Part shown: piece after piece, positions 8,299-42,700 of the stretch
Layout of the letters: each line of letters opens with the position of its first letter
Numbering within the stretch: position 1 is the first letter of the stretch
Origin: Minisyncoccia bacterium
GTDB lineage: Bacteria; Patescibacteriota; Minisyncoccia; UBA6257; 2-01-FULL-56-20
DNA length: 64,000 nt
Reading direction: 5' to 3'
Assembly (NCBI GenBank): GCA_049997875.1
Contig: JBEKRC010000001.1
Span: 14,775 to 78,774 of the forward strand
Program-made: the position numbers and the translations under genes
The notes under the pieces: generated by a model
What the model saw: only the letters and a program-made list of their open reading frames with translations
Databases searched by the model: none
Told to the model about the DNA's origin: nothing

Positions 8299-8724
8299 TC
8301 ACTCTACCACCTCAATTCCCATGTTCCGCGCGGTGCCGCGGATAATTTTTTCCGCCGCGTCCAAGTTGTCGGTGTTCAAGTCCGGCAGCTTCTTTTCTGC
8401 AATCTTCCGCACGTCTGCTTTTGTCACCTTTCCCACTTTCGTCGTAAGCGGATTCCCGGAACCCTTTTCAATGCCGGCAGCTTTTTTCAAGAGCGCTGCG
8501 GCCGGCGGGGTTTTTAAAATAAACTTGAAGCTGCGGTCTTCATAAATGGTAATAAGCGCCGGCACGACATCTCCCTTCATGTCCTTGGTCGCGTCGTTGA
8601 ACTGCTTGCAGAATTCTTGCAGATTGATGCCCTGCGGGCCCAACACCGTGCCCACCGGAGGCGCCGGATTCGCCGCTCCCGCCGGAAGCTGCAGCTTCAA
8701 AGTTGTTTTGATCTTCTTGGCCAT
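8299..8724 (-). CDS. rplK: 50S ribosomal protein L11
   Basis: [16 protein letters not shown]...[13 protein letters not shown]. The start is placed at the internal ATG at 8722-8724. Confidence 0.9.
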
Positions 8725-9598: not shown

Positions 9599-9662
9599 GG
9601 GTGCGCTACTCGTGTTTGGGCGACTTCGTCTTCGCAGGAACCCAAACACGAGTAGCGCACCC
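9599..9662 (-). repeat. perfect 22-bp-stem hairpin with a 20-nt loop (element H1) between rpsF and ssb
   Basis: 9599-9620 is the exact reverse complement of 9641-9662. The loop cgacttcgtcttcgcaggaa matches the loop of the hairpin at 42633-42700 in 19 of 20 positions, in the same orientation relative to transcription. Confidence 0.6.
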
Positions 9663-10149: not shown

Positions 10150-16881
<6,732 letters not shown>

Positions 16882-16928
16882 TACACACAAAAACGGTGCC
16901 ACTCTTTATTCCAAGAGGTCCCGTTGGC

Positions 16929-17906: not shown

Positions 17907-18953
17907 CTAGGATCGCTTGCGGATGGAATTTACCACGGCCAGCAGGAAAAAATTCGCGAACATACTGGAACCGCCGTAGCTTACGAAAGGGAGCGTGACG
18001 CCCACGACCGGCGTAAGCCCCGTCGCCGACCCCGCATTCAGGAGAAACTGCACCCCGAGCATCATCGCGGTGCCGAGGCAGATGAATTTCTCAAAATTCT
18101 CGTCAGCGAGCGAGCCGACCTTCAAAATCTGGAACACCAAAAAGAACATGGCGCCGATGACGACGAGCCCTCCCGCAACCCCCCATTCCTCCACGATGCC
18201 CGCAAAGATGAAATCCTGCGAAGGCTCCGACAGGAATCCGAGCTCCGTCTGCGTCCCCTGCCCGTAGCCCTTGCCGAAAAATCCCGCCGAACCCACGGCT
18301 ATCTTCGCTTGTGTGGAACTGTAATTGATCCCCAGGAGGTCCTGCGCAGGATAGAGGAATCCGACGATCCGTGCGCGGTGATAATCCTTGAGAACGTAGA
18401 ACCACACCGCAGTGGCGGCGAGCGCAAATACGAGCACCGCGACCGCGAGGCGCCGGAGCGGAAGGCCGGAGAGAAGAAGAAATCCGAACCAGATTGCAAA
18501 AAAGATGACCGCCGAACCCATGTCCGGCAGGCGTACCGCTATGGCCGCGGGGATCAGAAAAAACACGAAAGAGGTGATAATATGCCTCCACCGCGCGACC
18601 GCCAAATGTCTTCGGCTGAAATACCACGCATAAAGGAAAATAAGGGCCACTTTCATCAGCTCAACCGGTTGGAAGCTGAACGGACCTACGAAAATCCAAC
18701 TCTTCACGTTTCTTATGGCAGGGCTAAATAAATACGTAAAAACAATGAGGAAAAGCGCAAGAAGATAAATCGCCCACACGACCCATCGCGCATTGAACAC
18801 CATCCGCCAATCCACGTAAAGAAACAGGGCGACAAGCCCTGCGCCTATTGCAACCCAGGCGATTTGAAAATAAAAAAGGTGGGGTGAAACGGCGGAAAGA
18901 AGCGTGAGGCCCGCCGCGATCAAAATGCCGAGAGGAATGAAAAGTGCAAGCAT
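17907..18953 (-). CDS. SEDS-family peptidoglycan glycosyltransferase (RodA/FtsW)
   Basis: Polytopic membrane protein with GLTPVVGVTLPFVSYGGSS. The start is placed at the ATG at 18951-18953 (MLALFIPL). Confidence 0.8.
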   Translation of the reverse strand: MLALFIPLGILIAAGLTLLSAVSPHLFYFQIAWVAIGAGLVALFLYVDWRMVFNARWVVWAIYLLALFLIVFTYLFSPAIRNVKSWIFVGPFSFQPVELMKVALIFLYAWYFSRRHLAVARWRHIITSFVFFLIPAAIAVRLPDMGSAVIFFAIWFGFLLLSGLPLRRLAVAVLVFALAATAVWFYVLKDYHRARIVGFLYPAQDLLGINYSSTQAKIAVGSAGFFGKGYGQGTQTELGFLSEPSQDFIFAGIVEEWGVAGGLVVIGAMFFLVFQILKVGSLADENFEKFICLGTAMMLGVQFLLNAGSATGLTPVVGVTLPFVSYGGSSMFANFFLLAVVNSIRKRS

Positions 18954-20631: not shown

Positions 20632-20752
20632 GATGTCGGCACATCCTACTTTCCCCGCAGGCGAACCCGCAAGTATCATGGGATCGGGGCGCTTTCACTT
20701 CTCTGTTCGGAATGGGAAGAGGTGGGACACGCCCGGATAGAGCACCGACATC
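20632..20752 (-). rRNA. rrf: 5S rRNA
   Basis: The reverse complement reads GAUGUCGGUGCUC...CCCACCUCUUCCCAUUCCGAACAGAGAAGUGAAAGCGCC...GUGCCGACAUC. Helix I terminal pairing is present. Confidence 0.85.
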
Positions 20753-21057
20753 AAAAGGTCGTTTTGCATGATGAGCGTGCATTTTGCAGACAGTACTCAG
20801 AAGGGCCGTCTGCAAAACGCACACTCACCATGTTCAACTCCATTTGTAGAAAATGGAACGAGCGCTTGCAAAATAGCTTTTGGACGAGAGCCCTTCCGAG
20901 TACTCTCGGACAAAAGCTATTTTGCAAGCACGAAGTCAGCATTGGGATGGTTGGCGGGATTATTAGTACTCCTCGGCTGAAACCCTCGCGGGCCTTACAC
21001 CTGGAGCCTATCAACGTGGTAGTCTTCCACGAAATCACACACACCTAATCTTGGGGT

Positions 21058-21091
<34 letters not shown>

Positions 21092-21231
21092 CTTCCCTAC
21101 ATAGCTACCCGGCAGTTCAGTTGGTACCAAAGCCGGTAGACCAGAGGTAGGTTCAGCAAAGTCCTCTCGTACTAATGCCAACTCCCCTCAAGTGTAAACG
21201 CCTGCAGCAGATAGAGACCGACCTGTCTCAC

Positions 21232-21892
21232 GCAATATATTACTTCACGTCATTACTGACGGTTTGGACTATACCACTATCTCGATCCGCATCGAGATAA
21301 TCGACGTTTTATGGAATTTTTCTTCCATCCAATCTTTTAGATTGAGTCTCTACGGGGTCAATGTATATAATTTTCGCTTCTTTGAATGATTTAATTCTCT
21401 GAAACGATCTACGGTCTTCATCAGCAGGTGAAAATCGTTTCGATCTTTCACCTCAGCTTTCTTATCTAAGATTTCCAGCATAAGCATTGCCTGTTCCTTT
21501 TTCAAAATGAGATATGGCTGGACCATTACGAGGAATGCGCGGATAGCGTCTTCTCTCGCGATGGTATATTCAACCATGCCGTCATTTCTCTCTCGGATAT
21601 ATCCGAGATCAATAAGAGAACAAATCTGCTCGAACTTTTTCAGTTCTTTCCAGAAATCCTGCAATATATGCTTTTTGTGCTGACGAAAGACTTTTACACA
21701 TGACTTCCCTCGGTATTATCCTATAACCATTCAGCGCATCAAAATACTTTTTAATATATTTTTAATGGTCATTATGGTATGCACGTCCACAGGTCATGGA
21801 CGATAGGACTTCACCGATATGAGTCAATTTTTTTCAATCCGCATTACTGCGAAAAGCCGCCGTGTTCGATCATCGTAAAGGGTTCTTTCGTT
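21232..21892 (-). mobile_element. group I intron in 23S rRNA at the E. coli L2593 (I-CreI/I-CeuI) site
   Basis: The exon reads ...GGGUUCAGACCGU | intron | CGUGAGACAGGUCGG. The 5' exon ends in U and the intron ends in G. Confidence 0.7.
21350..21664 (-). pseudogene. N-terminally truncated LAGLIDADG homing endonuclease remnant inside the L2593 intron
   Basis: The 104-aa frame matches the C-terminal half of single-motif LAGLIDADG enzymes. It has no ATG and no LAGLIDADG motif, and an in-frame stop lies 17 codons upstream. Confidence 0.5.
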
Positions 21893-22547
21893 GACGGTCT
21901 GAACCCAGCTCACGTGGGCTTTTAAATGGCGAACAGCCATACGCTTGGGAGCTTCTTCACCCCCGCGCTAGCCCGAGCCGACATCGAGGTGCCGAGCGAA
22001 GTCGTCGATAGGAACTCTCGGACTTCACCAGCCTGTTATCCCCGGAGTAGCTTTTATCCGGTGTCTCCGGCCTTTCTATCAAGAATGCCGTCGGGTCACT
22101 AACTTCTGCTTTCGCACCTGCTCGTCTTGTAGGACTCGCAGTCAAGCCGGCTTTTGCGTTTGCACGTCCTGCCCGATTTCCATCCGGGCTAAGCCGACCT
22201 TAATAAACTCCTCCGTTACTCTTTTGGAGGAAAACGCCCCATTTAAACTGCCTACCAAGCACTGTCTCGGTCGGGTTTATGCTTGCGCACTCCCCAATCG
22301 GTTAGACGTTAAAGTTTTAAAGATGGCTGTTTCATTGTCGGATCCACGATGCCCGAGAGCACCGCTTCAAATCCTCACCACTACGCTACGCAGTAAAACT
22401 CTAAAATCAATACCAAGCTGCAGTAAAGCTTCCGGGGTCTTTTCGTCCCGCTGCAGGTATCCCGCGTCTTCACGGGAATCGCATTTTCACCGAGCTTGCC
22501 TCTGAGACAGTTCTCCAGTCGTTACGCCTTTCGTGCGCTTCGGAACT

Positions 22548-22746
22548 TCATTCCTGTTGTCTTCGATTTCTCGAAGTGTCGGACTATATATTCATCCCGC
22601 CCATGCGGGAGCTTGCGTGTAGTCTCTACGGAGTCCCTGATCGAATCGGGGTTCCCTCGGTATTGCCCTATTTGCCTGTGCAAACGTAGGTTTCACCGAT
22701 ACAGCAAGTGCTTCAAGATCAATCACTTGATCAAGGGGCAAGTTTC
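22548..22746 (-). mobile_element. roughly 200-nt ORF-less insertion in 23S rRNA at about L1951 (possible small or degenerate group I intron)
   Basis: The exon reads ...UUUUCGGGU | about 197 nt | AAGUUCCGAAGCGCACGAA. The insertion ends in G. Confidence 0.45.
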
Positions 22747-22769
22747 CTTACCCGAAAAGGAATTGCGCT

Positions 22770-23517
22770 CAATTGTGTTAATCTGCATGTCGCCATGCAG
22801 TTCGGACCATATCTTCCCGCGATGCGGGTTCGGCATATGGTCTCTGAGGATTCTAGAAACGGATTTTCTTTCGATTCGTTTTTGAAGCAATGGTAAGAAT
22901 TTTATTCCATCCATCTTCTTTGAGATGGAGTTTTTTACTCATCATTTCCACTACCTTTTTGAACAAAACAAAATCGTTTTGCTTATAGGTCTTTAATGGA
23001 AATTGATCAAAAAATGGAATAATTATTTCTTTCAATTCCGAAATTGATCTCACGCAGTATCGATAAAGATGTTCGTTGTGATTATCGCATCGTTTATTAA
23101 GGACGATACTGCCACACCCGAAGAACTCTTTTATCGCTACGAGGGCGTTTAAACTTTTTGCGCCTTGCGTGATAACAAATTCCGGGAATAGTTGCTTTCC
23201 GAATCGAGTGGTTGAATTTTTGATCACCGAAATAACGAAGCTACCTTCGCCGTCGGTAAATCCAGATATCCAACTTGCCGTTTTTAGTCTTTCCTGCTGA
23301 TTGTCTGCACCGATCATATTTTCACTATACTCATGAAACATTAAATTTCTCTAAAGTTTTCATGAAATACAGTAATGTCGGATGCTCAGATGTTCCAGCA
23401 TATAGCCGATTAAAGGATATTCTGCAGGGCAGAATAGGCTGCGCTTTTATTTTGTTGTACCAAAGCCATAATCGTTCCAATCCTCGCCAGCACCTTTAAT
23501 AAATAAAGACGCGGGCG
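22770..23517 (-). mobile_element. group I intron in 23S rRNA at about L1931
   Basis: The exon reads ...AACUAUAAUCGUUCUAAGGU | intron | AGCGCAAUUCCUUUUCGGGUAAG. The intron ends in G and contains an intact homing endonuclease ORF. Confidence 0.7.
22853..23341 (-). CDS. LAGLIDADG homing endonuclease (intron-encoded)
   Basis: The 162-aa product has an N-terminal WISGFTDGEGSF (LAGLIDADG-type) motif, is AT-rich, and is on the same strand as the rRNA. Confidence 0.85.
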   Translation of the reverse strand: MFHEYSENMIGADNQQERLKTASWISGFTDGEGSFVISVIKNSTTRFGKQLFPEFVITQGAKSLNALVAIKEFFGCGSIVLNKRCDNHNEHLYRYCVRSISELKEIIIPFFDQFPLKTYKQNDFVLFKKVVEMMSKKLHLKEDGWNKILTIASKTNRKKIRF

Positions 23518-25132
23518 ACCTTAGAACGATTATAGTTATCGCTGACATTGACGAGGGCTTGAGTCAGTGAGCAATACATATTACTACATATCACCCCCAA
23601 CCTTGACCTTCTCGCATCGGTCAGGCGTCACCCCCTATACATCCTCTTGCGAGTTAGCAGGGAGCTGTGTTTTTGGTAAACAGTCGCCAGAGAAACTTTC
23701 GCTGCGGCTCCATCGAGACTGAAAGAAGGAAGGGAGGGGATCCTCCCTGAAGAATAATTTGGCCGGGCGGTGCACGACGCAGTAAAAACAAGGAGAGCCT
23801 AATCTCTTCATTCCTACTTGCAGTGAAACCGCGCACCACCCGATATGCCGTTTCCTTCTTTCAGCCCCGATAGAGCAGGCCATATTGCTAACGTACGGCC
23901 GCTTTTTTGCCGAGTTCCTTAGAGGCAAATCACTCGTTCCCCTTGGGCTTCTCGCCCTATCCACCTGTGTCGGTTTACGGTACGGATCCTTTGCAACGTA
24001 ACCGCCGCGCTTTTCTCGGAAGGCTCTTCGTGCGTGTTGATGAGGTAAATTCCTCACCTTCCGCCGATCCTTGTTGAACTTCGGACCAGCGATACCAAAC
24101 CAATAAGGCATACGCACCTATTTCCTTCGCACACGACGGATAATCACAAAGGAGGGCTGGAATATTAACCAGCATTCCATCAGCTGCGGCTTTCGCCATC
24201 GCCTTAGGATCGCCTAACCCGTGGTTGATTGCCAGTGCCACGGAAACCTTGGATTTTCGGGGTTCCAATTTCTCATTGGGATTGTGGTTACTCATACCAA
24301 CATTTTCTCTTCGTATCGCTCCACTCGCCCTCACGGGTCGGGCTTCACTGCAATACGAATGCTCTCCTACCACTCACCGATCCCGAAGGATCGGCGAATC
24401 CGTATCTTCGGTACCATGCTTAGCCCCGGTACATTTTCGGCGCCACCACCCGTCGAATAGTGAGTTGTTACACACTCTTTAAAGGATGGCTACCTCTAAG
24501 CCAACCTCCTATCTGTCTATGGGTGATGACTACCTTTAACACTTAGCATGGATTTGGGGACCTTAGATAACGGTCTGGGCTCTTCCCCTCGCGACCACGG
24601 AGCTTAGCCCCCGCAGTCTGACTAGTGCGGGATCCGCCTGCGGTATTCGGAGTTTGATTGATCGATCGGCCTTTCGGCCTTTACCGATCATCCAGTGCTC
24701 TACCCCCGCAGGATTTTCCGCACCGCTAGTCCTAAAACTATTTCGGAGAGAACCAGCTATTACCGAATTCGATTAGCTTTTCACTCCTTACCTCAGCTCA
24801 TCCGAGAGTTTTGAACAACTCACCAGTTCGGGCCTCCCCTTCGATTTCTCGAAGGTTCACCCTGGCCAAGGCAAGCTCATCCGGCTTCGGGTCTACCTTG
24901 TGCTGCGATCCCACTCAATAAATTGAGTGGGATGTACGCCCTATTAAGACTCGCTTTCGCTATGCCTGCACGCTATGCGCGTTTAGACAAGCAACACAAG
25001 ATAAGTCGTTGGCTCATTCTTCAATAGGCACATTGTCGCACCGCGCGGACACATTGCTGCGTCCACGCTTAGTGCTTCAATTCCTTGTAGACAAATGGTT
25101 TCAGGTTCTATTTCAACGGCCTCACCGGCCTG

Positions 25133-25169
<37 letters not shown>

Positions 25170-25859
25170 ATCTAGAAAAGTATTTAGCCTTACCTGATAG
25201 TACAGGCAAATTCCTTCGGGACTTATTTACCCCGAAGTACTCAAGTTGAAAAACTAAGGAGATCGTAAGTTTTCGCCTACGGGACTATCACCCTCTTTGG
25301 CCCCGCCTTTCCAGGCGGCTTCGGCTAACCAACGATTTTTTTACTCCTCCTTATTTCACCAATCGCCGAATCCCCGGGACGTGCCCGGAAACTCGGCGAC
25401 CAGTAAAACAGCGTCTCTCTCTTATAACCCCAAGGTCCGATCTTGCGATCAGAACCTTAGTTTAGGCTCTTCCCTGTTCTCTCGCCGATACTAAGGGAAT
25501 AAACTGATTTGTTCTATGTTCCTTTGGCTACTGAAATGTTTTACTTCGCCAAGTACGCGAATCGGCTTGCGCCGAAACAATTACGGTTTACGTAATTAGG
25601 TTTCCCCATTCGGACATCCCCGGATCACAGGTTGCTACGCACCTCCCCGAGGCGTATCGTCGCTACGCCACGTCCTTCATCGCCTTTTCTAGTCAAGGCA
25701 TCCACCATTCGCCCTTATTGAGATCCGTCTTGCGACGGAAATGCCAACCATCCCAATGCTGACTTTTACTTATTGAGACTGAGAGAAGGAGCGGAAAAGT
25801 TTGGTGATGGTTACCATTCCTCCGCTACTTTCAATATGTTGTTCTCCTGAGCCTGAGTT

Positions 25860-26047: not shown

Positions 26048-26454
26048 ATAACATTCCTTCTCTCAGTCTCAATAAGACATACTCTGCTCGCCACGAGAAA
26101 TTGCCACGGAAAACAAAATTTAAAAATGCGATTATATTTTCCGGGGATCCCAACTCGCGCTGGGGTTAAGATGTGACGCAGAGCTTCTGCTATTACGCAC
26201 CTCCGACTCTACAATTCGGAGCCGCCCGATAGTTCATCCAGGCGAATGATGTTAAATTGCTCTTTTCATACGAATCCCAAGTAAAAAATCAGCCGCACAC
26301 GGCGGCTTATCCAGTGCGCAAAAACGCGCGGTTCAGCCGCTGTGATTTGAAAGATTTAATGCCTTGTCCATTCGTATCAGTCCATTATACGCAGGCCCAA
26401 AAGCATGTCAAGTGCCGTTTTCCTGACCACTTCCCTGTTCAATTCCCTAATCAA

Positions 26455-26612
26455 AAAGAATGTAAGCAGGGGTTTACAGCGGACCGCGCAGCCCCGATTG
26501 GCTAGGTCCGAAATGCCATTGCGTGCATTTCGGCAATCGGGGCGAGCGACAAGAAAAAATTCTCGCAGGAAGAATTTTATTCTGGCGCTGTAAACCCCTG
26601 CTTACATTCTTT
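26455..26612. repeat. MITE-like palindromic element with perfect 27-bp terminal inverted repeats abutting the tRNA-Pro 3' end
   Basis: 26455-26481 (aaagaatgtaagcaggggtttacagcg) is the exact reverse complement of 26586-26612. The 104-nt interior has nested hairpins (gccccgattg/caatcggggc, ccgaaatgc/gcatttcgg) and contains tcgcaggaa, which is shared with hairpin H1. Confidence 0.6.
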
Positions 26613-26613
26613 G

Positions 26614-26684
26614 TCGGGCCGCTGGGAATCGAACCCAGACCGCACGCACCCGAAGCGTGTATACTGCCACTATACGACGGCCCG
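26614..26684 (-). tRNA. tRNA-Pro (CGG)
   Basis: CGGGCCG...CACGCUUCGGGUGCGUG...CUGGGUUCGAUUCCCAG...CGGCCCGA. The anticodon loop is UUCGGGU. Confidence 0.85.
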
Positions 26685-30462: not shown

Positions 30463-30770
30463 CAAGCACTACTATAATGCGAAGGTTTTCTTTTCTCAAG
30501 GGCATCTCGGAGCCACGGCGGCTTGAGGCGACCTTCAGGTCGCCTGCCGTGGCGAGAGCGAGGCGTCGCTCGCCCGCCGGAGCGAGCGACGCCGTCCCTT
30601 TCGGGAGGAAGACCGTAGCTTGTTGCGGGGGCCGGAATCGGACCGGCTTCGGGAGCTTATGGGGCTCCCCGGAAAACCATTCCCAACCCTCCCGCGCGAT
30701 TGACACAAAACGCCCGTCAACCAATTCTAAATAACTTTTTAATACATTGTCAAAAAAGGCGAAGGGTGTG

Positions 30771-36395: not shown

Positions 36396-36828
36396 ATCAT
36401 AATGATTCGACCTTTGCCGACCATGCTATCGTAAAAGTACTCAATTTATCTATCCTTCCTTAGTTCGAATCCACTCCCCTCGCACGTCAATTTGGATCGA
36501 ACCCCATTCCACGCAAACAAAAAATGGCCATTATATGGACATTTCTAGGATGGAAAAGTTGCCGAAAGCGGCAACTTCTTAGTGCACAGGCCAGGATTCG
36601 AACGCCTCAGATTGCGTCGGAACTGCAAGATAAAATGGATGTAGCCCCGCCTGCGGCAGATATGTTTTCGAAGAACCTAGCGGAGGCGAGGAAAGAGCGC
36701 TCTCCAAGTGAGTAGAAAATTTGACGGGACCCCCGCCGAAGGCGAGAGGGTGGCAAATTTTCGTAAGCGAGCGAGGAGAGCGCCCGAGCTGAAGCGGGTT
36801 CAAGAAAACATAATTGCCGCAGGCGGAG

Positions 36829-38550
36829 CTATGCCTCTTCCGTTTCCCGTATCACTTGCTCCATGGACGTTATCCCGTCAAGCGCCTTCATGACGCCGTC
36901 CTCGCGCAACGTGACCATCCCCTGATCCTTCGCTTCCTTCGCAATCTTCTGGGTAGTAGCGCCGCTCGCAATGATTTCTTCAAGCGCCGGCGTCATCCGG
37001 AAAACTTCGTAGATCGGGGTTCTCCCCACGATGCCCTTGCCCTTGCAGGTGGCGCATCCTTTCGTATGCCAAATCTTGTACGGCTCCGAATATTTCGCCT
37101 TGAACTCCGGGCGCACGCTTTCCAACGCCCGCCGGATGACTTTCTGCAGTTCCGGCAACGCTTCCTCCTGGAACTTGCAATCGGGGCAGAGTTCCCCCAC
37201 CAAGCGCTGCGCCATCATCACATTGAGGGAAACCGGGAGAAGGAACGGTTCAACCTTCATGTCAATAAGCCGGGGAATCACGCCCGCAGCATTATTCGTG
37301 TGAAGCGTGGAGAGTACGACGTGGCCGGTAAGCGCCGCCTGTACCGCGAGCCCTGCCGTCTCGTTGTCGCGGATCTCGCCCACCATGATAATGTCCGGAT
37401 CCTGCCGCAGAATCTGGCGCAAGCCCGACGCGAAATCATAACCGATCTCCGGACGCACCTGAGATTGGTTGACGCCCGCGATGAAATATTCCACCGGATC
37501 TTCCAGGCTTACGATGTTCACATTTTCCTGGTTCAGCGCCTGGAGGAAAGCGTAGAGCGTCGTGGTTTTTCCCGAGCCGGTCGGACCCGTGATGAGCACC
37601 ATTCCGAACGGTTTTTCAAGTCCCGCCTTTATGGCCTCAAGATTGCCGTAGCGAAACGGAAGACTTTCAAAGCTTTTGAGTCCCATAGTCGGGTCAAGAA
37701 CGCGGATCGCGACCTTCTCGCCGAGCGGCGTGGGAAACGTCGCCACGCGGAAATCAACGTCGCGGTCAAAAATCTTCGCGCGGAAACGGCCGTCCTGCGG
37801 GATCCTTGTCTCGTCTATTTTTAAATTAGAAATGACCTTGACGCGTGAAACGATCGGCTGCGCAAGCTGCGCGGGCAATGATGCCACCTGATGAAGATCG
37901 CCGTTATTGCGGAGGCGAATGCGAAGAAATCCCTGTTGCGGTTCAATATGAATGTCCGACGCCTTGCTCTCCACCGCCTCGCGGAAGGTGTCGGCCACGA
38001 TCTTAATGACAGGGGCATCTTCGCTGCCTCCCGCCTCTTCCAAGCCCACGACCCGCTGCACGCTTCCCCCTTCCTCCCCCGTGAGCGATTCAACTGCCTT
38101 TGCGATATCCGTCCGATAGGGGGAATATCTCCGAAGCACCGCTTCCCAATCGCCGTACGCGACGAGGTAGATGCCGAGATTCATATGATTCTCACGCGCA
38201 ATGAATCTTAACGCTTCCTGGGATTTCGGATCGTCGGGATGCAGCATGCCGACCACAAGAAGATTATCCTGGAGCGCGATGGGGATCACCTCGTAGCTCC
38301 TCGCGGTCTCTTCCGAAATCATTTGAAAAAGCTTTGCGTCAACGTCCGCGGGAGAAACTTTTTTATAAGGGATTTTAAGCAGCTCACTCTTGAGCTCCGC
38401 GATCTTTACGTCGTCAACCGCCCGTTGCTTCGCAATAACCGTTTCAACGGACTCTCCGCTTATGAGCGCGTCGCGCTTGATCCGGTTCGCAAGCGCAGCG
38501 TCAACGATCCCTTTCGCCTGCAGTTGCGTGAGTAGTTCGTCGGAGGTCAT
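36829..38550 (-). CDS. pilB: type IV pilus assembly / type II secretion ATPase (GspE/PilB family)
   Basis: Walker A LITGPTGSGKTTTLYA, Asp box, His box (VLSTLHTNNAAG) and a C-terminal CPDCK zinc motif. Confidence 0.85.
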   Translation of the reverse strand: MTSDELLTQLQAKGIVDAALANRIKRDALISGESVETVIAKQRAVDDVKIAELKSELLKIPYKKVSPADVDAKLFQMISEETARSYEVIPIALQDNLLVVGMLHPDDPKSQEALRFIARENHMNLGIYLVAYGDWEAVLRRYSPYRTDIAKAVESLTGEEGGSVQRVVGLEEAGGSEDAPVIKIVADTFREAVESKASDIHIEPQQGFLRIRLRNNGDLHQVASLPAQLAQPIVSRVKVISNLKIDETRIPQDGRFRAKIFDRDVDFRVATFPTPLGEKVAIRVLDPTMGLKSFESLPFRYGNLEAIKAGLEKPFGMVLITGPTGSGKTTTLYAFLQALNQENVNIVSLEDPVEYFIAGVNQSQVRPEIGYDFASGLRQILRQDPDIIMVGEIRDNETAGLAVQAALTGHVVLSTLHTNNAAGVIPRLIDMKVEPFLLPVSLNVMMAQRLVGELCPDCKFQEEALPELQKVIRRALESVRPEFKAKYSEPYKIWHTKGCATCKGKGIVGRTPIYEVFRMTPALEEIIASGATTQKIAKEAKDQGMVTLREDGVMKALDGITSMEQVIRETEEA

Positions 38551-41266: not shown

Positions 41267-41968
41267 ATGAGTTTTGACTTTCTGGTTTCTCTTTTTTTTC
41301 CACGCCGCTGCCTTGCCTGCGGGAAAACCCTGCGGGCGGGCGCGCTCTGTCCCGCGTGCCGCGGGAAGATAACGACCGCGCGCACGTTCTTCTGCGGCCG
41401 ATGCGGCTCGCCGCTTCCCGGTCCGAAGCTCCATGACCCCCGCCGCACCTGCCATCCTGACTTCCCCTACGTGCTCGGCGCCGCGGGAAGCTACAAGGAC
41501 GAAACCCTAAGGGCGCTCGTCCACGCCCTCAAGTTCCGCGGCGTGAGAGCGGCGGCGGAACCGCTCGCATCCATCATGGCGGAGTACGCCCTGCCATTCA
41601 AAACGGATCTGTTGCGTTACGTCGCGATGCCAATCCCGCTTTCGCGTGAGCGCTTCCGCATCCGCGGTTTCAATCAATCGGAACGCATTGCAACGCGATT
41701 CGCGGAATATTTCGGACTTCCCGTGGCAACGAAGTGCCTTGTGCGGATCAAGCACGCAAAACCACAGAGTGAAACGACGAGCGTGGCGGAGCGGAGAGAG
41801 AACATCCGCGGATGTTTTGCGGTTGCCGATGCCGCCGCCGCGTGCGGGAAAAACGTTCTCCTTGTTGACGACGTGAGCACCTCCGGCGCGACGTTTCTTG
41901 AAGCTGCGCGCGCGCTCAAGGACGCCCACGCGGCGGACATTATCGCGCTTGCGGCAGCCAAGGCATAG
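41267..41968 (+). CDS. comF: competence protein ComF (phosphoribosyltransferase domain)
   Basis: An N-terminal Cys4 zinc finger (CLACG...CPACRG...CGRCG) and a C-terminal PRTase motif (VLLVDDVSTSGATF). Confidence 0.8.
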   Translation: MSFDFLVSLFFPRRCLACGKTLRAGALCPACRGKITTARTFFCGRCGSPLPGPKLHDPRRTCHPDFPYVLGAAGSYKDETLRALVHALKFRGVRAAAEPLASIMAEYALPFKTDLLRYVAMPIPLSRERFRIRGFNQSERIATRFAEYFGLPVATKCLVRIKHAKPQSETTSVAERRENIRGCFAVADAAAACGKNVLLVDDVSTSGATFLEAARALKDAHAADIIALAAAKA

Positions 41969-42148
41969 AACCCATCTCCAAAATAGGCGCACGAGGATCA
42001 TGAACCATTTTCGAGCGAGAAACGTGAATCCCGACAAAGGAATACCTCGTGGCATTGCGAGGAGGGATTCGCGTTTCGCAGCCGAAAATGGCCATAAGAG
42101 TCGTGTGGCCTATTTTGGAGATGGGTTCTCACGTGGTAAAATAGCCAC

Positions 42149-42632: not shown

Positions 42633-42700
42633 GCATGCGCTCCCGCTGTGTGCGCCCTCCTGCGCAGACGAAGTCGGTCGCACACAGCGGGAGCGCATGC
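42633..42700 (+). repeat. perfect 22-bp-stem hairpin with a 24-nt loop (element H2), 3 nt upstream of tRNA-Arg
   Basis: 42633-42654 is the exact reverse complement of 42679-42700. The loop ccctcctgcgcagacgaagtcggt is near-identical to the reverse complement of the H1 loop. Confidence 0.6.

What the first reader, a model, noticed from the sequence alone, without database searches (positions are those of the whole stretch)
26455..26612. MITE-like 158-bp palindromic element with perfect 27-bp terminal inverted repeats fused to the 3' end of tRNA-Pro
Perfect 27-bp TIRs enclose 104 nt that itself forms nested hairpins (10-bp and 9-bp stems). The right TIR ends 1 nt from the tRNA-Pro discriminator base. 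The interior contains tcgcaggaa, the same 9-mer found in the H1 loop, and its reverse complement occurs in H2, which links the three elements. No ORF is present. It is a candidate non-autonomous mobile element or a structured RNA processed with the tRNA.
Basis: seen in the sequence. Interest (0 to 1): 0.55.

Follow-up and report, generated by a model that had tools for sequence, protein, structure and literature searches.

The report
Structured palindromic repeat behind tRNA-Pro
The 158-bp perfect palindrome after tRNA-Pro is real, but it is not a classical MITE: it is one copy of an apparently undescribed family of structured hairpin elements in a clade of ultra-small (CPR) bacteria that sit directly after tRNA, tmRNA and some protein genes.

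Summary
A perfect 27-bp inverted repeat (26455-26481 / 26586-26612) encloses 104 nt with nested hairpins, and it starts 1 nt past the tRNA-Pro(CGG) discriminator on the minus strand.

The organism is a Minisyncoccia (Patescibacteria/CPR) bacterium from peat. The element belongs to a repeated family with four helices:
- a long outer stem P1;
- P2, with loop UCCNGCG;
- P3, with bulge CCAAGC;
- P4.

Covariation is strong: 93.6% of cells pair against 63% in shuffles, and 53 of 65 pairs show double changes.

Copies lie 0-2 nt after tRNA-Pro, tRNA-Ala, a tRNA(CAU)-like gene, tmRNA and fusA. Wherever the context is unambiguous they are in gene-sense orientation. A second, diverged copy is in this window at 30476-30622.

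The interior is 90-99% identical between unrelated loci, but the basal half of the "TIR" is specific to each locus. No target-site duplication flanks the palindrome. Close relatives carry a different module, or none, at the same slot.

Best model: a repeated, non-autonomous structured module sits in the loop of a long terminator-type hairpin, is co-transcribed with the tRNA and is removed during 3' processing. In relatives it lies inside a ~290-bp insert bounded by 18-nt repeats of the tRNA 3' end.

Rfam has no match. The function is inferred, not shown.

The parts
26613..26684 (-). tRNA-Pro(CGG), with no encoded CCA. Its 3' end abuts the element.
   Evidence: ARAGORN gives 26613-26684. Rfam RF00005 gives 55.4 bits at 26614-26684.
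26586..26612 (-). The basal ~13 nt are locus-specific and A-rich. The apical ~14 nt are conserved among copies.
   Evidence: Perfect 27-bp inverted repeat. Comparison of stems between copies. Three compensated double changes against L013.
26552..26583 (-). P2 hairpin with the conserved loop UCCUGCG. The loop is at 26564-26570, which on the + strand reads as the 9-mer tcgcaggaa at 26563-26571.
   Evidence: RNAalifold and covariation: stems AAUUCU/AGAAUU, AAUCCC/GGGAUU and CUCGCGC/GCGCGAG pair with the loop kept.
26491..26543 (-). P3 (GCCCCGAUUG / CAAUCGGGGC) enclosing P4 (CCGAAAUGC / GCAUUUCGG), with the conserved 3'-side bulge ACCUAGC at 26501-26507.
   Evidence: P3 and P4 covary fully in the diverged subtype.
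26455..26481 (-). It ends in CUUU and is followed by UUGAUU.
26415..26454 (-). Remnant of the 'tail' that follows the element in relatives (GGGAAUUGAACAGGGAAGUGGUCAGGAAAAC). It is an inverted, diverged copy of a tRNA T-arm and is truncated at the promoter.
   Evidence: Alignment with the L013, L095 and L088 tails. Motif scan.
26384..26411 (-). Consensus sigma-70-type promoter (TTGACA-16-TATAAT, 12 of 12) that follows the element. It lies upstream of tRNA-Glu, tRNA-Gly, 23S and 5S.
   Evidence: Promoter scan. rRNA and tRNA map. The promoter block is conserved in L011 and L012.
30476..30622 (-). Second family copy in the window (diverged 'C-prime' subtype). The P2-P4 architecture is the same, but the outer stem has decayed. 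It lies between a tRNA(CAU)-like gene and tRNA-Met.
   Evidence: Covariance model R1: 46.1 bits, E = 1e-6. Sequence and fold, with orthologues L011:7201-7347, L012:6767-6913 and L015:5403-5548.
30625..30695 (-). Non-canonical tRNA-like gene with anticodon loop CCCAUAA (CAU). Its 3' end abuts the second copy.
   Evidence: Rfam tRNA-Sec model: 33 bits, E = 8e-5, below the gathering score. ARAGORN did not call it.

Best explanation
The 158-bp palindrome is one copy of a clade-restricted, repeated, non-coding element in Minisyncoccia (CPR/Patescibacteria).

**Architecture.** A long Watson-Crick outer helix P1 closes a junction that carries two hairpins. One is P2, with loop UCCNGCG. The other is P3/P4, with bulge CCAAGC.

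**Shown**
- The structure covaries.
- Copies sit 0-2 nt after the 3' end of tRNA-Pro, tRNA-Ala, a tRNA(CAU)-like gene, tmRNA, fusA and other ORFs.
- They are in the sense orientation of the upstream gene wherever the context is unambiguous.
- The interior plus the inner ~14 bp of P1 is shared between loci, while the basal part of P1 is locus-specific.
- Occupancy and module type differ between close relatives at the same slot.

**Inferred**
- The basal stem is the resident long terminator-type hairpin of the upstream gene. Such perfect 18-25-bp palindromes are common in CPR. The conserved module occupies its loop and has spread or been exchanged between such hairpins, with no enzyme of its own.
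- The element is transcribed as the 3' trailer of tRNA-Pro.
- The 27-bp duplex ends or insulates the transcript just before the rRNA-operon promoter. The duplex is long enough to be an RNase III substrate, or the trailer could be cut off by RNase Z at the discriminator. Either way the tRNA is freed for CCA addition.
- In relatives the element lies inside a ~270-295-bp insert bounded by 18-nt direct repeats of the host tRNA/tmRNA 3' end. This points to site-specific integration at the T-loop. The window copy keeps only the proximal part of that insert.
For: **Reality and structure**
- establish the repeat and its fold.
- On 11 distinct copies, 93.6% of cells pair against 63.1% in shuffles (0 of 500 shuffles reach this). 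Slid controls give 36-45%. 53 of 65 pairs carry double changes.
- G.U against A.C counts in P2-P4 are 20 to 2 in gene sense. P1 has 270 Watson-Crick pairs, 3 G.U and 5 A.C.

**Repetition**
- The metagenome scan found the interior at other loci with different stems: L086, L088, L085/L090 and L089.
- The L086 (fusA) and L088 (tmRNA) interiors differ at 1 of 104 nt.
- The covariance model finds further copies, including window 30476-30622.

**Position and polarity**
- tRNA-Pro; tmRNA; fusA stop codon +1; tRNA-Ala; tRNA(CAU)-like gene.

**Slot polymorphism**
- At the tRNA-Pro slot, L011 has no element and L012 has a different hairpin plus two-thirds of this element. L014 has a 29-bp hairpin with a 12-nt loop, and L017 has a different two-hairpin module.
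- The fusA site is empty in L092.

**Stems**
- The window and L013 arms differ by three fully compensated changes.
- The inner stem is conserved between copies.
- The L088 stem includes 7 nt of tmRNA.

**Terminator context**
- Long perfect hairpins with 0-3-nt loops are common in distant CPR loci. Interiors of 40 nt or more occur in 14 of 25 such hairpins in this clade, against 2 of 24 in distant CPR.

**Integration signature**
- Exact 18-nt direct repeats occur in L013, L095 and L088, and a 19-nt one in L012 at tRNA-Asp. Chance expectation is about 0.001 per locus.
Against: - No expression or cleavage data exist. Co-transcription, RNase III cutting and termination are all inferred.
- Most copies have no U-tract after P1, so P1 is not a canonical intrinsic terminator.
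- No clean filled-versus-empty pair shows the module entering a pre-existing hairpin. The L017/L029 stem resemblance is A-rich and could be coincidental.
- The window copy has no second direct repeat, so its link to the integrated unit rests on homology with L013.
- The second window copy has a decayed outer stem, which argues that P1 is not always under selection.
- The covariation alignment was fitted to the model structure, which inflates pairing somewhat (caveat).
- Genome-wide copy number was not measured, because no whole genome could be scanned.
Confidence: 0.55

Rival explanations
1. Classical MITE: a deletion derivative of an insertion sequence whose 27-bp terminal inverted repeats are bound by a transposase supplied in trans, and which inserts with a target-site duplication.
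For: - Perfect 27-bp inverted repeat, small size and no ORF.
- The family is repeated and polymorphic among relatives.
- A TA dinucleotide lies 17 nt from the inner end of the arm in the window and L086 copies, which is compatible with TA-targeting elements.
Against: - The arms differ between copies except for the inner ~14 bp. In the diverged subtype only ~5 bp are shared.
- One arm runs 7 nt into tmRNA.
- No direct repeat flanks the arms in any copy.
- No other copy of the arm sequence exists in the window or the held loci.
- The orientation is always gene-sense, which cut-and-paste insertion does not predict.
- A crude motif search found no transposase-like protein.
Confidence: 0.07
2. A locus-specific terminator or processing hairpin of tRNA-Pro that is vertically inherited, not repeated and not mobile.
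For: - Single copy of the exact sequence, 100% identical in ten strain-level contigs.
- The position right after the tRNA, ahead of the next promoter.
- A U-run at the 3' foot of the stem.
- Relatives L012, L013, L014 and L017 also carry a long hairpin at this position.
Against: - The same 104-nt interior occurs at 90-99% identity behind fusA and tmRNA, with unrelated flanks.
- There is a family copy 4 kb away in the window.
- The element is absent in the closest sequenced relative, L011, whose CCA-adding enzyme is 93% identical.
- Different modules occupy the same slot in different relatives.
Confidence: 0.05
3. A trans-acting structured non-coding RNA (for example a protein-binding RNA) whose biogenesis uses tRNA-linked transcription and excision at the P1 duplex. 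The copies would then be paralogous genes rather than selfish insertions.
For: - Strong covariation, with conserved single-stranded motifs (UCCNGCG loop, CCAAGC bulge, GCUCUC/CUCCGAGA junction) kept across subtypes whose helices have changed completely.
- Sense-strand G.U bias.
- Fixed polarity behind highly expressed genes.
- P3/P4 is invariant over 60 nt in copies whose P1 and P2 differ.
Against: - The element is lost from close relatives at each slot.
- Some copies are decayed or truncated (L012 partial, L095 fusA copy, window 30476).
- Unrelated module types substitute at the same slot.
- No match in Rfam.
- No partner protein has been identified.
Confidence: 0.2
4. A DNA-level site: the palindrome is the tRNA-proximal arm of a miniature integrative element. 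It would act as a recombinase or accessory-protein binding structure, or as a cruciform, and its RNA fold would be incidental.
For: - 18-nt direct repeats of the host 3' end bound a ~270-295-bp unit in three loci. The repeats start at the same T-loop position and follow the same tail end..GTGA.
- The tail begins with an inverted copy of the host T-arm.
- P1 is almost purely Watson-Crick, as expected for a DNA palindrome.
- Similar short inserts with partial tRNA-Pro repeats occur across CPR.
Against: - The tail-plus-repeat unit exists without the palindromic module (L012 tRNA-Asp; L050).
- The module exists without tail or repeat (fusA, the ORF sites and the tRNA(CAU)-like slot). The two are therefore separable.
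- The interior helices show RNA-type G.U asymmetry.
- No recombinase gene was found nearby.
Confidence: 0.13

Closest known systems
Correia elements (CREE/NEMIS) of Neisseria and similar bacterial MITE-like palindromic repeats (ERIC, RUP, Rickettsia palindromic elements). Comparison drawn from my own knowledge plus the reviews listed.
   Same: - 100-160 bp and non-coding, with ~26-bp terminal inverted repeats that form a long duplex in RNA.
- They sit next to genes, are co-transcribed and are cut by RNase III.
- They are polymorphic between strains.
- RPEs also occur in RNA genes.
   Different: - In those families the terminal repeats are the conserved part and carry the transposase sites, with a TA duplication. 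Here the interior is conserved and the basal arms are locus-specific, with no duplication at the arms.
- The orientation here is fixed relative to the upstream gene.
- Copies here are strongly tied to tRNA/tmRNA 3' ends.
Intervening sequences (IVS) of bacterial 23S rRNA, including the short uncharacterised inserts in CPR rRNA genes (PMC11270868).
   Same: - A long terminal duplex closes a variable interior.
- The insert sits in a transcript that is processed anyway, so it is tolerated.
- Distribution is sporadic, suggesting transfer.
- The same genomes carry such inserts in 23S (L013:14632-14788 and others).
   Different: - This element is not inside rRNA.
- The 23S inserts examined here share no motifs with it.
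- RNase III excision is untested for this element.
Small or satellite tRNA-integrating elements: genomic-island remnants with attL/attR, CIMEs, and tycheposon satellites. Comparison from my own knowledge.
   Same: In relatives the element lies within a short insert bounded by direct repeats of the tRNA/tmRNA 3' end that start in the T-loop. These inserts form tandem arrays at tRNA-Pro in other CPR.
   Different: - The unit is only ~150-300 bp, with no gene at all.
- The palindromic module is separable from it.
- The window copy lacks the distal repeat.
Elements that target hairpins: IS1397/ISKpn1 in REP loops and class C group II introns after terminators. Comparison from my own knowledge.
   Same: The module appears to reside at the tip of a terminator-type hairpin directly after genes.
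   Different: - Those are autonomous elements with known enzymes.
- No enzyme, and no clean empty-versus-filled hairpin pair, was found here.

Membership tests
MITE (IS-derived miniature inverted-repeat transposable element) | Terminal inverted repeats are conserved among copies, because they are the transposase binding sites. | tested here: not met
   The outer arms of the window, L086, L088, L094, L095 and L092 copies differ. Only the inner ~14 bp (C type) or ~5 bp (C-prime) are shared.
MITE (IS-derived miniature inverted-repeat transposable element) | A short target-site duplication directly flanks the repeats. | tested here: not met
   The flanks of every copy were read and show no direct repeat at the arm ends. 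The 18-nt repeats seen in relatives bound a larger unit, not the palindrome.
MITE (IS-derived miniature inverted-repeat transposable element) | Many similar copies occur within one genome. | tested here: inconclusive
   Two family copies lie in the 64-kb window. Several copies occur per 20-kb locus of relatives if other module types are counted. No whole genome could be scanned, and the exact sequence is single-copy in the held DNA.
MITE (IS-derived miniature inverted-repeat transposable element) | Small size with no coding capacity. | tested here: met
   158 bp, overlapped only by a mechanical ORF.
Correia/NEMIS-type element | A family-specific 26-bp TIR sequence, a TA duplication and an IHF site. 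| tested here: not met
   The arm sequence is unrelated to that family's (compared from memory) and is variable between copies. TA is present at a comparable position in 2 of 3 independent copies only. The IHF site was not tested.
REP/REPIN (RAYT-mobilised) | 20-40-nt imperfect palindromes with a conserved GTAG/CGTC tag, in many copies, plus a RAYT gene. | tested here: not met
   There is no conserved tag at the arm ends and the arms are variable. A genome-wide search for a RAYT gene was not possible.
23S rRNA intervening sequence | Inserted in a 23S helix (for example H25 or H45) and removed by RNase III. | tested here: not met
   The element lies outside rRNA, 3' of tRNA-Pro. RNase III cleavage is not testable here.
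Canonical intrinsic (Rho-independent) terminator | A G+C-rich hairpin immediately followed by a U-tract. | tested here: inconclusive
   In the window copy the stem ends CAUUCUUU and is followed by UUGAUU, and the scan tool did not call it. Other copies lack a U-tract. Distant CPR loci have A-tract/T-tract perfect palindromes at such positions.
tRNA-integrating island or satellite (attL/attR) | A direct repeat of the tRNA 3' end lies at the far end of the insert. | tested here: not met
   The window has no second copy of GATTCCCAGCGGCCCGAC, even allowing 3 mismatches. The feature is met in relatives L013, L095 and L088 and in L012 at tRNA-Asp.
tRNA-integrating island or satellite (attL/attR) | A tyrosine or serine recombinase encoded in the element or elsewhere in the genome. 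| not testable with these tools
   The insert has no ORF. Only about 7% of the genome is held, and a crude motif search found nothing.
Any Rfam RNA family | A covariance-model match at or near the gathering score. | tested here: not met
   There is no meaningful hit for this element or its relatives, even at E <= 1-10. The only hits are spurious miRNA-precursor matches to long hairpins.

The most novel reading that the evidence does not exclude
The element belongs to a previously undescribed class of CPR genetic element. It would be a structured RNA module that colonises the loops of terminator hairpins directly behind tRNA, tmRNA and highly expressed genes, always in sense. It would either (a) be released by tRNA-type or RNase III processing as an abundant small RNA with its own function, or (b) propagate by a new hairpin-loop or T-loop-targeted mechanism with no enzyme of its own. 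It travels together with CPR-wide gene-less mini-inserts (~150-300 bp) that duplicate the last 18 nt of tRNA genes.
Probability: 0.3. Interest if true: 0.75.

Novelty: new variant of a known kind. Interest (0 to 1): 0.58.

Why it matters
CPR/Patescibacteria have tiny genomes (~0.9 Mb) and are thought to carry few repeats. Even so, these loci hold about nine long perfect hairpins per 100 kb, and more than half of them contain structured modules.

A defined, covarying family tied to tRNA and tmRNA 3' ends would matter in four ways:
- It adds an RNA/repeat family that Rfam lacks.
- It gives a handle on how CPR terminate and process stable-RNA transcripts that lack encoded CCA.
- It explains hypervariable spots next to tRNA genes that break synteny between near-identical genomes.
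- It points to very small, gene-less, tRNA-integrating inserts as a hidden layer of CPR genome dynamics.

For annotation, these elements should not be mistaken for MITEs with conserved TIRs.

Tried and rejected
- **Exact and near-exact copies of the arm or the whole element.** I searched the window and about 0.87 Mb of held loci with blastn and nhmmer. Only orthologous sites were found.
- **IMG/VR scans** for the P3/P4 core, the A-type loop pattern, the tail hairpin and the C-prime core. These gave only chance hits or nothing, so no viral parent was found.
- **Rfam** at gathering and at permissive E-values, for the element, its relatives and the tails. Nothing was found.
- **Target-site duplications** of 2-10 nt at the arm ends. 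None were found. TA at a fixed offset in 2 of 3 copies is not enough.
- **Integron attC reading.** Rejected: there are no R''/R' consensus boxes, and the neighbours are core genes.
- **Known small self-cleaving ribozyme signatures** (for example the hammerhead CUGANGA...GAAA core). The only such strings lie in helices that covary away in other copies.
- **The tail as a tRNA gene on the opposite strand.** Neither ARAGORN nor Rfam calls it, although it keeps a T-arm-like motif.
- **Clean empty sites** for the tRNA-Ala and tRNA-Pro inserts. The flanks in relatives are unrelated.
- **Whether L095 overlaps the window**, which would place more copies in the same genome. There is no overlap.
- **23S-embedded hairpins** as members of the same family. 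They share no motifs.
- **Regex search for RNase III, tyrosine recombinase and HUH motifs.** It found nothing useful and is not a real test.
- **Literature searches.** They found no description of such elements in CPR.

Full report
**1. The observation**

The sequence is as described. The repeat finder reports arms 26455-26481 and 26586-26612, 27 nt, 100% complementary, 104 nt apart. It also reports nested 10-bp and 9-bp stems and an A/T-rich imperfect hairpin. The arm has no other match in the window with up to 3 mismatches, and none is expected by chance.

tRNA-Pro(CGG) lies on the minus strand at 26613/26614-26684 and has no encoded CCA. The element is therefore the immediate 3' flank of the tRNA, starting one base after the discriminator+1. 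The tRNA plus element folds far better than shuffles do (z = -7.2).

**2. Context**

Reading the minus strand, the order is:
- a PheS-like gene;
- the CCA-adding enzyme;
- a 131-aa membrane ORF;
- tRNA-Pro;
- the element;
- a consensus promoter, TTGACA-16-TATAAT, at 26411-26384;
- tRNA-Glu, tRNA-Gly, an insert-rich 23S and 5S.

Exact-protein look-ups place the window in peat metagenome contigs of about 308 kb. NCBI names the organism a Minisyncoccia (Patescibacteria/CPR) bacterium. Ten strain-level contigs carry the element 100% identical.

**3. The slot behind tRNA-Pro is hypervariable**

I fetched relatives through homologues of the CCA-adding enzyme.

| Locus | CCA-enzyme identity | What follows tRNA-Pro |
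|---|---|---|
| L013 | 87% | The full element, inverted together with the tRNA. Its arms differ from the window's at three positions, each compensated on the other arm. |
| L012 | 91% | A different perfect 23-bp hairpin with loop ..GAGUACUCAGAAGGGCUC.., then only the 3' two-thirds of the window element. |
| L011 | 93% | No element; a 117-aa ORF sits there. |
| L014 | 83% | A 29-bp perfect hairpin with the 12-nt loop UACUAAGAAGGG. |
| L017 | 75% | A 28-bp perfect stem around a different 64-nt two-hairpin interior. |

I also scanned one genome per species for the tRNA-Pro 3' half. This returned 64 Patescibacteria loci, and the long hairpin is confined to this clade.

**4. The interior is a repeated module; the arms are not transposon ends**

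A metagenome scan with a 20-nt seed from P3/P4 found the module elsewhere:
- **L086.** The element starts 1 nt after the fusA stop codon. The 27-bp stem is CCTGTTTGTACTCATGGCTTTACAGAG.
- **L088.** The element abuts tmRNA. Its 32-bp perfect stem includes the last 7 nt of tmRNA.
- **L085/L090 and L089.** The same P3/P4 hairpin is joined to a different P2 and to imperfect outer stems.

The L086 and L088 interiors differ at 1 of 104 nt, although their flanks and basal stems are unrelated. Only the inner ~14 bp of the stem (..GG.TTT[AG][AC]AG[CA]G) is shared between copies. No direct repeat flanks the arms in any copy. This contradicts a MITE defined by 27-bp TIRs.

**5. A covarying four-helix family**

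A covariance model built from six copies found more members:
- L092:1927-2079;
- L094:12104-12249 and L095:12105-12228, both directly after fusA (the L095 copy has a decayed 5' arm);
- L095:8593-8738, directly after tRNA-Ala;
- L011, L012 and L015 orthologues;
- window 30476-30622.

The last is a second copy in this very window. It sits between a non-canonical tRNA(CAU)-like gene (30625-30695) and tRNA-Met. The fusA site is empty in L092, whose EF-G is 91% identical to that of L086.

On 11 distinct copies, 93.6% of cells pair against 63.1% in shuffles and 36-45% in slid controls. 53 of 65 pairs carry compensatory double changes. The alignment was fitted to the model, which inflates these figures somewhat.

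In the diverged subtype every helix has changed sequence, yet three single-stranded motifs persist: the P2 loop UCCNGCG, the P3 bulge CCAAGC and the junction strands.

In P2-P4, G.U pairs outnumber A.C by 20 to 2 when read in the sense of the upstream gene. P1 is almost purely Watson-Crick. Every copy in an unambiguous context has the same polarity relative to the upstream gene. L089, which lies between convergent genes, is ambiguous.

**6. What the outer stem is**

Long perfect hairpins of 18-25 bp with 0-3-nt loops are frequent in distant CPR loci. They have an A-rich 5' arm and a T-rich 3' arm and look like the ordinary terminator type there. In the window clade 14 of 25 such hairpins carry interiors of 40 nt or more, against 2 of 24 elsewhere.

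The window arms start AAAGAA and end UUCUUU(UU). The base of the L017 stem equals the simple hairpin behind tRNA-Pro in L029. I therefore read the basal half of the '27-bp TIR' as the resident 3'-end hairpin of tRNA-Pro. The apical part plus the 104 nt would be a module sitting in its loop.

A requirement to fold on both strands (bidirectional hairpins), or intrastrand templated repair, would explain the Watson-Crick-only, always-compensated stem. This step is inference.

**7. An integration signature in relatives**

In three loci the element is followed by a homologous ~110-125-nt 'tail' ending ..GTGA. After the tail comes an exact or near-exact 18-nt direct repeat of the host gene's 3' end, starting at the T-loop GATTCC. 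The three loci are L013 (tRNA-Pro), L095 (tRNA-Ala) and L088 (tmRNA). Chance expectation is about 0.001 per locus.

L012 tRNA-Asp has the same tail and repeat, but with only a short A/T-tract hairpin in place of the palindromic module. Partial tRNA-Pro 3'-end repeats 90-370 nt downstream occur in several distant CPR species, and L050 has a homologous tail. The tail begins with an inverted, diverged copy of the host T-arm.

So a gene-less mini-insert at tRNA T-loops appears to be CPR-wide. The palindromic module is a clade-specific occupant of the position between the restored tRNA 3' end and that tail.

The window keeps only the first ~40 nt of the tail (26454-26415) and has no second repeat. 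The rRNA-operon promoter starts at the truncation point.

**8. How it most likely works**

- **Shown:** repetition, structure, polarity, position and polymorphism.
- **Inferred, transcription:** the element is transcribed as the tRNA-Pro trailer, and P1 ends or insulates that transcript ahead of the rRNA promoter.
- **Inferred, tRNA release:** P1 is long enough for RNase III. RNase Z at the discriminator, or RNase III plus exonucleases, would free the tRNA. The CCA-adding enzyme encoded two genes upstream would then complete it.
- **Inferred, spread:** the module spreads or is exchanged among such hairpins without an enzyme of its own.
- **Still open:** whether the module is merely tolerated or has a function of its own (the conserved loops suggest a binding partner).

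**9. Comparison with known elements, and novelty**

It resembles Correia-type palindromic repeats and rRNA intervening sequences in form and likely processing. It resembles small tRNA-integrating satellites in its flanking repeats. It fails the defining tests of each (see the membership table).

No Rfam family matches. Literature searches found no description. The nearest is a note that CPR rRNA genes carry short uncharacterised inserts, probably RNase III-type IVS (PMC11270868).

I rate it a new variant of a known kind (small non-autonomous palindromic repeats), of moderate to high interest. The main gaps are expression data and a whole-genome census.

Noticed in passing
window 20864-20929 and 20754-20845; L012:11968-12033; L014:12776-12845, 8546-8611, 17953-18016; L092:6242-6311; L015:17252-17325: A second hairpin family ('A type'). 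The stems are perfect, 23-31 bp and different at each locus. They share the conserved 12-nt loop UACUNNGAAGGG and the upper stem ..UUUG..A..AG. Copies lie behind tRNA-Pro, tRNA-Lys and the tRNA(CAU)-like gene, and twice in opposite orientations in the 23S-5S spacer.
   Followed up: partly
window 9599-9662 and 42633-42700: Two perfect 22-bp hairpins with unrelated stems share a ~19-nt loop, UCCUGCG[AC]AGACGAAGUCG, in the sense of the neighbouring genes. One lies 4 nt after an ORF stop codon and the other 3 nt before tRNA-Arg. The loop begins with the same heptamer as the P2 loop of the finding.
   Followed up: partly
window 41967-42129 and 36642-36831; L094:20665-20829; L092:2973-3150: Two further families of long-stem palindromic elements with 119-134-nt structured interiors. 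The interiors are ~90% alike between loci, while the outer stems differ. They start at or overlap the stop codon of the upstream gene. In L092 one exactly fills the gap between two convergent genes.
   Followed up: partly
L016:5622-5740, L016:4334-4443, L017:6914-7021, L017:11473-11592: 'B type' modules: 56-65-nt interiors with two hairpins (loops UACU and CUNC) inside 18-28-bp perfect stems. They occupy the same slots (after tRNA-Pro and after the tRNA(CAU)-like gene) that carry C or A types in other genomes. Module type is concerted within a genome.
   Followed up: partly
L021, L024, L027, L029, L050, L051 (distant Patescibacteria); L012:2157-2336: Short gene-less inserts (~90-370 bp) sit behind tRNA-Pro or tRNA-Asp and are bounded by partial direct repeats of the tRNA 3' end, sometimes in tandem. 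Their internal 'tail' is conserved from Minisyncoccia to Brennerbacteria.
   Followed up: partly
window 30625-30695 (-): An unannotated tRNA-like gene with a CAU anticodon loop and an unusual D region. ARAGORN misses it, and it falls below the gathering score in Rfam (33 bits to the tRNA-Sec model). It is conserved in L011, L012, L014 and L015.
   Followed up: partly
window 21811-25728 (23S) and 20751-21810; L013:13855-20300: The 23S gene spans 3918 nt against a 2925-nt model, and a ~1-kb spacer lies before 5S. Relatives carry LAGLIDADG ORFs, three group I introns and at least three long A/T-rich hairpin inserts in 23S. There is no 16S next to the operon.
   Followed up: no
window 25758-25790 / 26055-26087 and 23707-23731 / 23852-23876: A 33-nt imperfect stem encloses tRNA-Glu plus tRNA-Gly ahead of 23S. 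A stem inside the 23S insert uses a very similar sequence (CUGAGAGAAGGA against CUGAAAGAAGGAA).
   Followed up: no
window 26291-26307 (-) and 26377-26285: A terminator-like hairpin with a T-run lies ~80 nt after the consensus promoter and before tRNA-Glu. It is conserved in L011 and L012. It could be a short leader transcript or an attenuator of the rRNA operon.
   Followed up: no
window 10150-16902 (-); L001, L017: A single ~2250-aa ORF carries both the RpoB and the RpoC domains (fused beta-beta' subunit).
   Followed up: no
L013:2030-7068; L015:6902-8293: Relatives carry a conjugation-type cluster (TraG/TrwB/relaxase-like) near the PheS/CCA locus. They also carry a diversity-generating retroelement (bAvd plus reverse transcriptase) next to tRNA-Met.
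   Followed up: no
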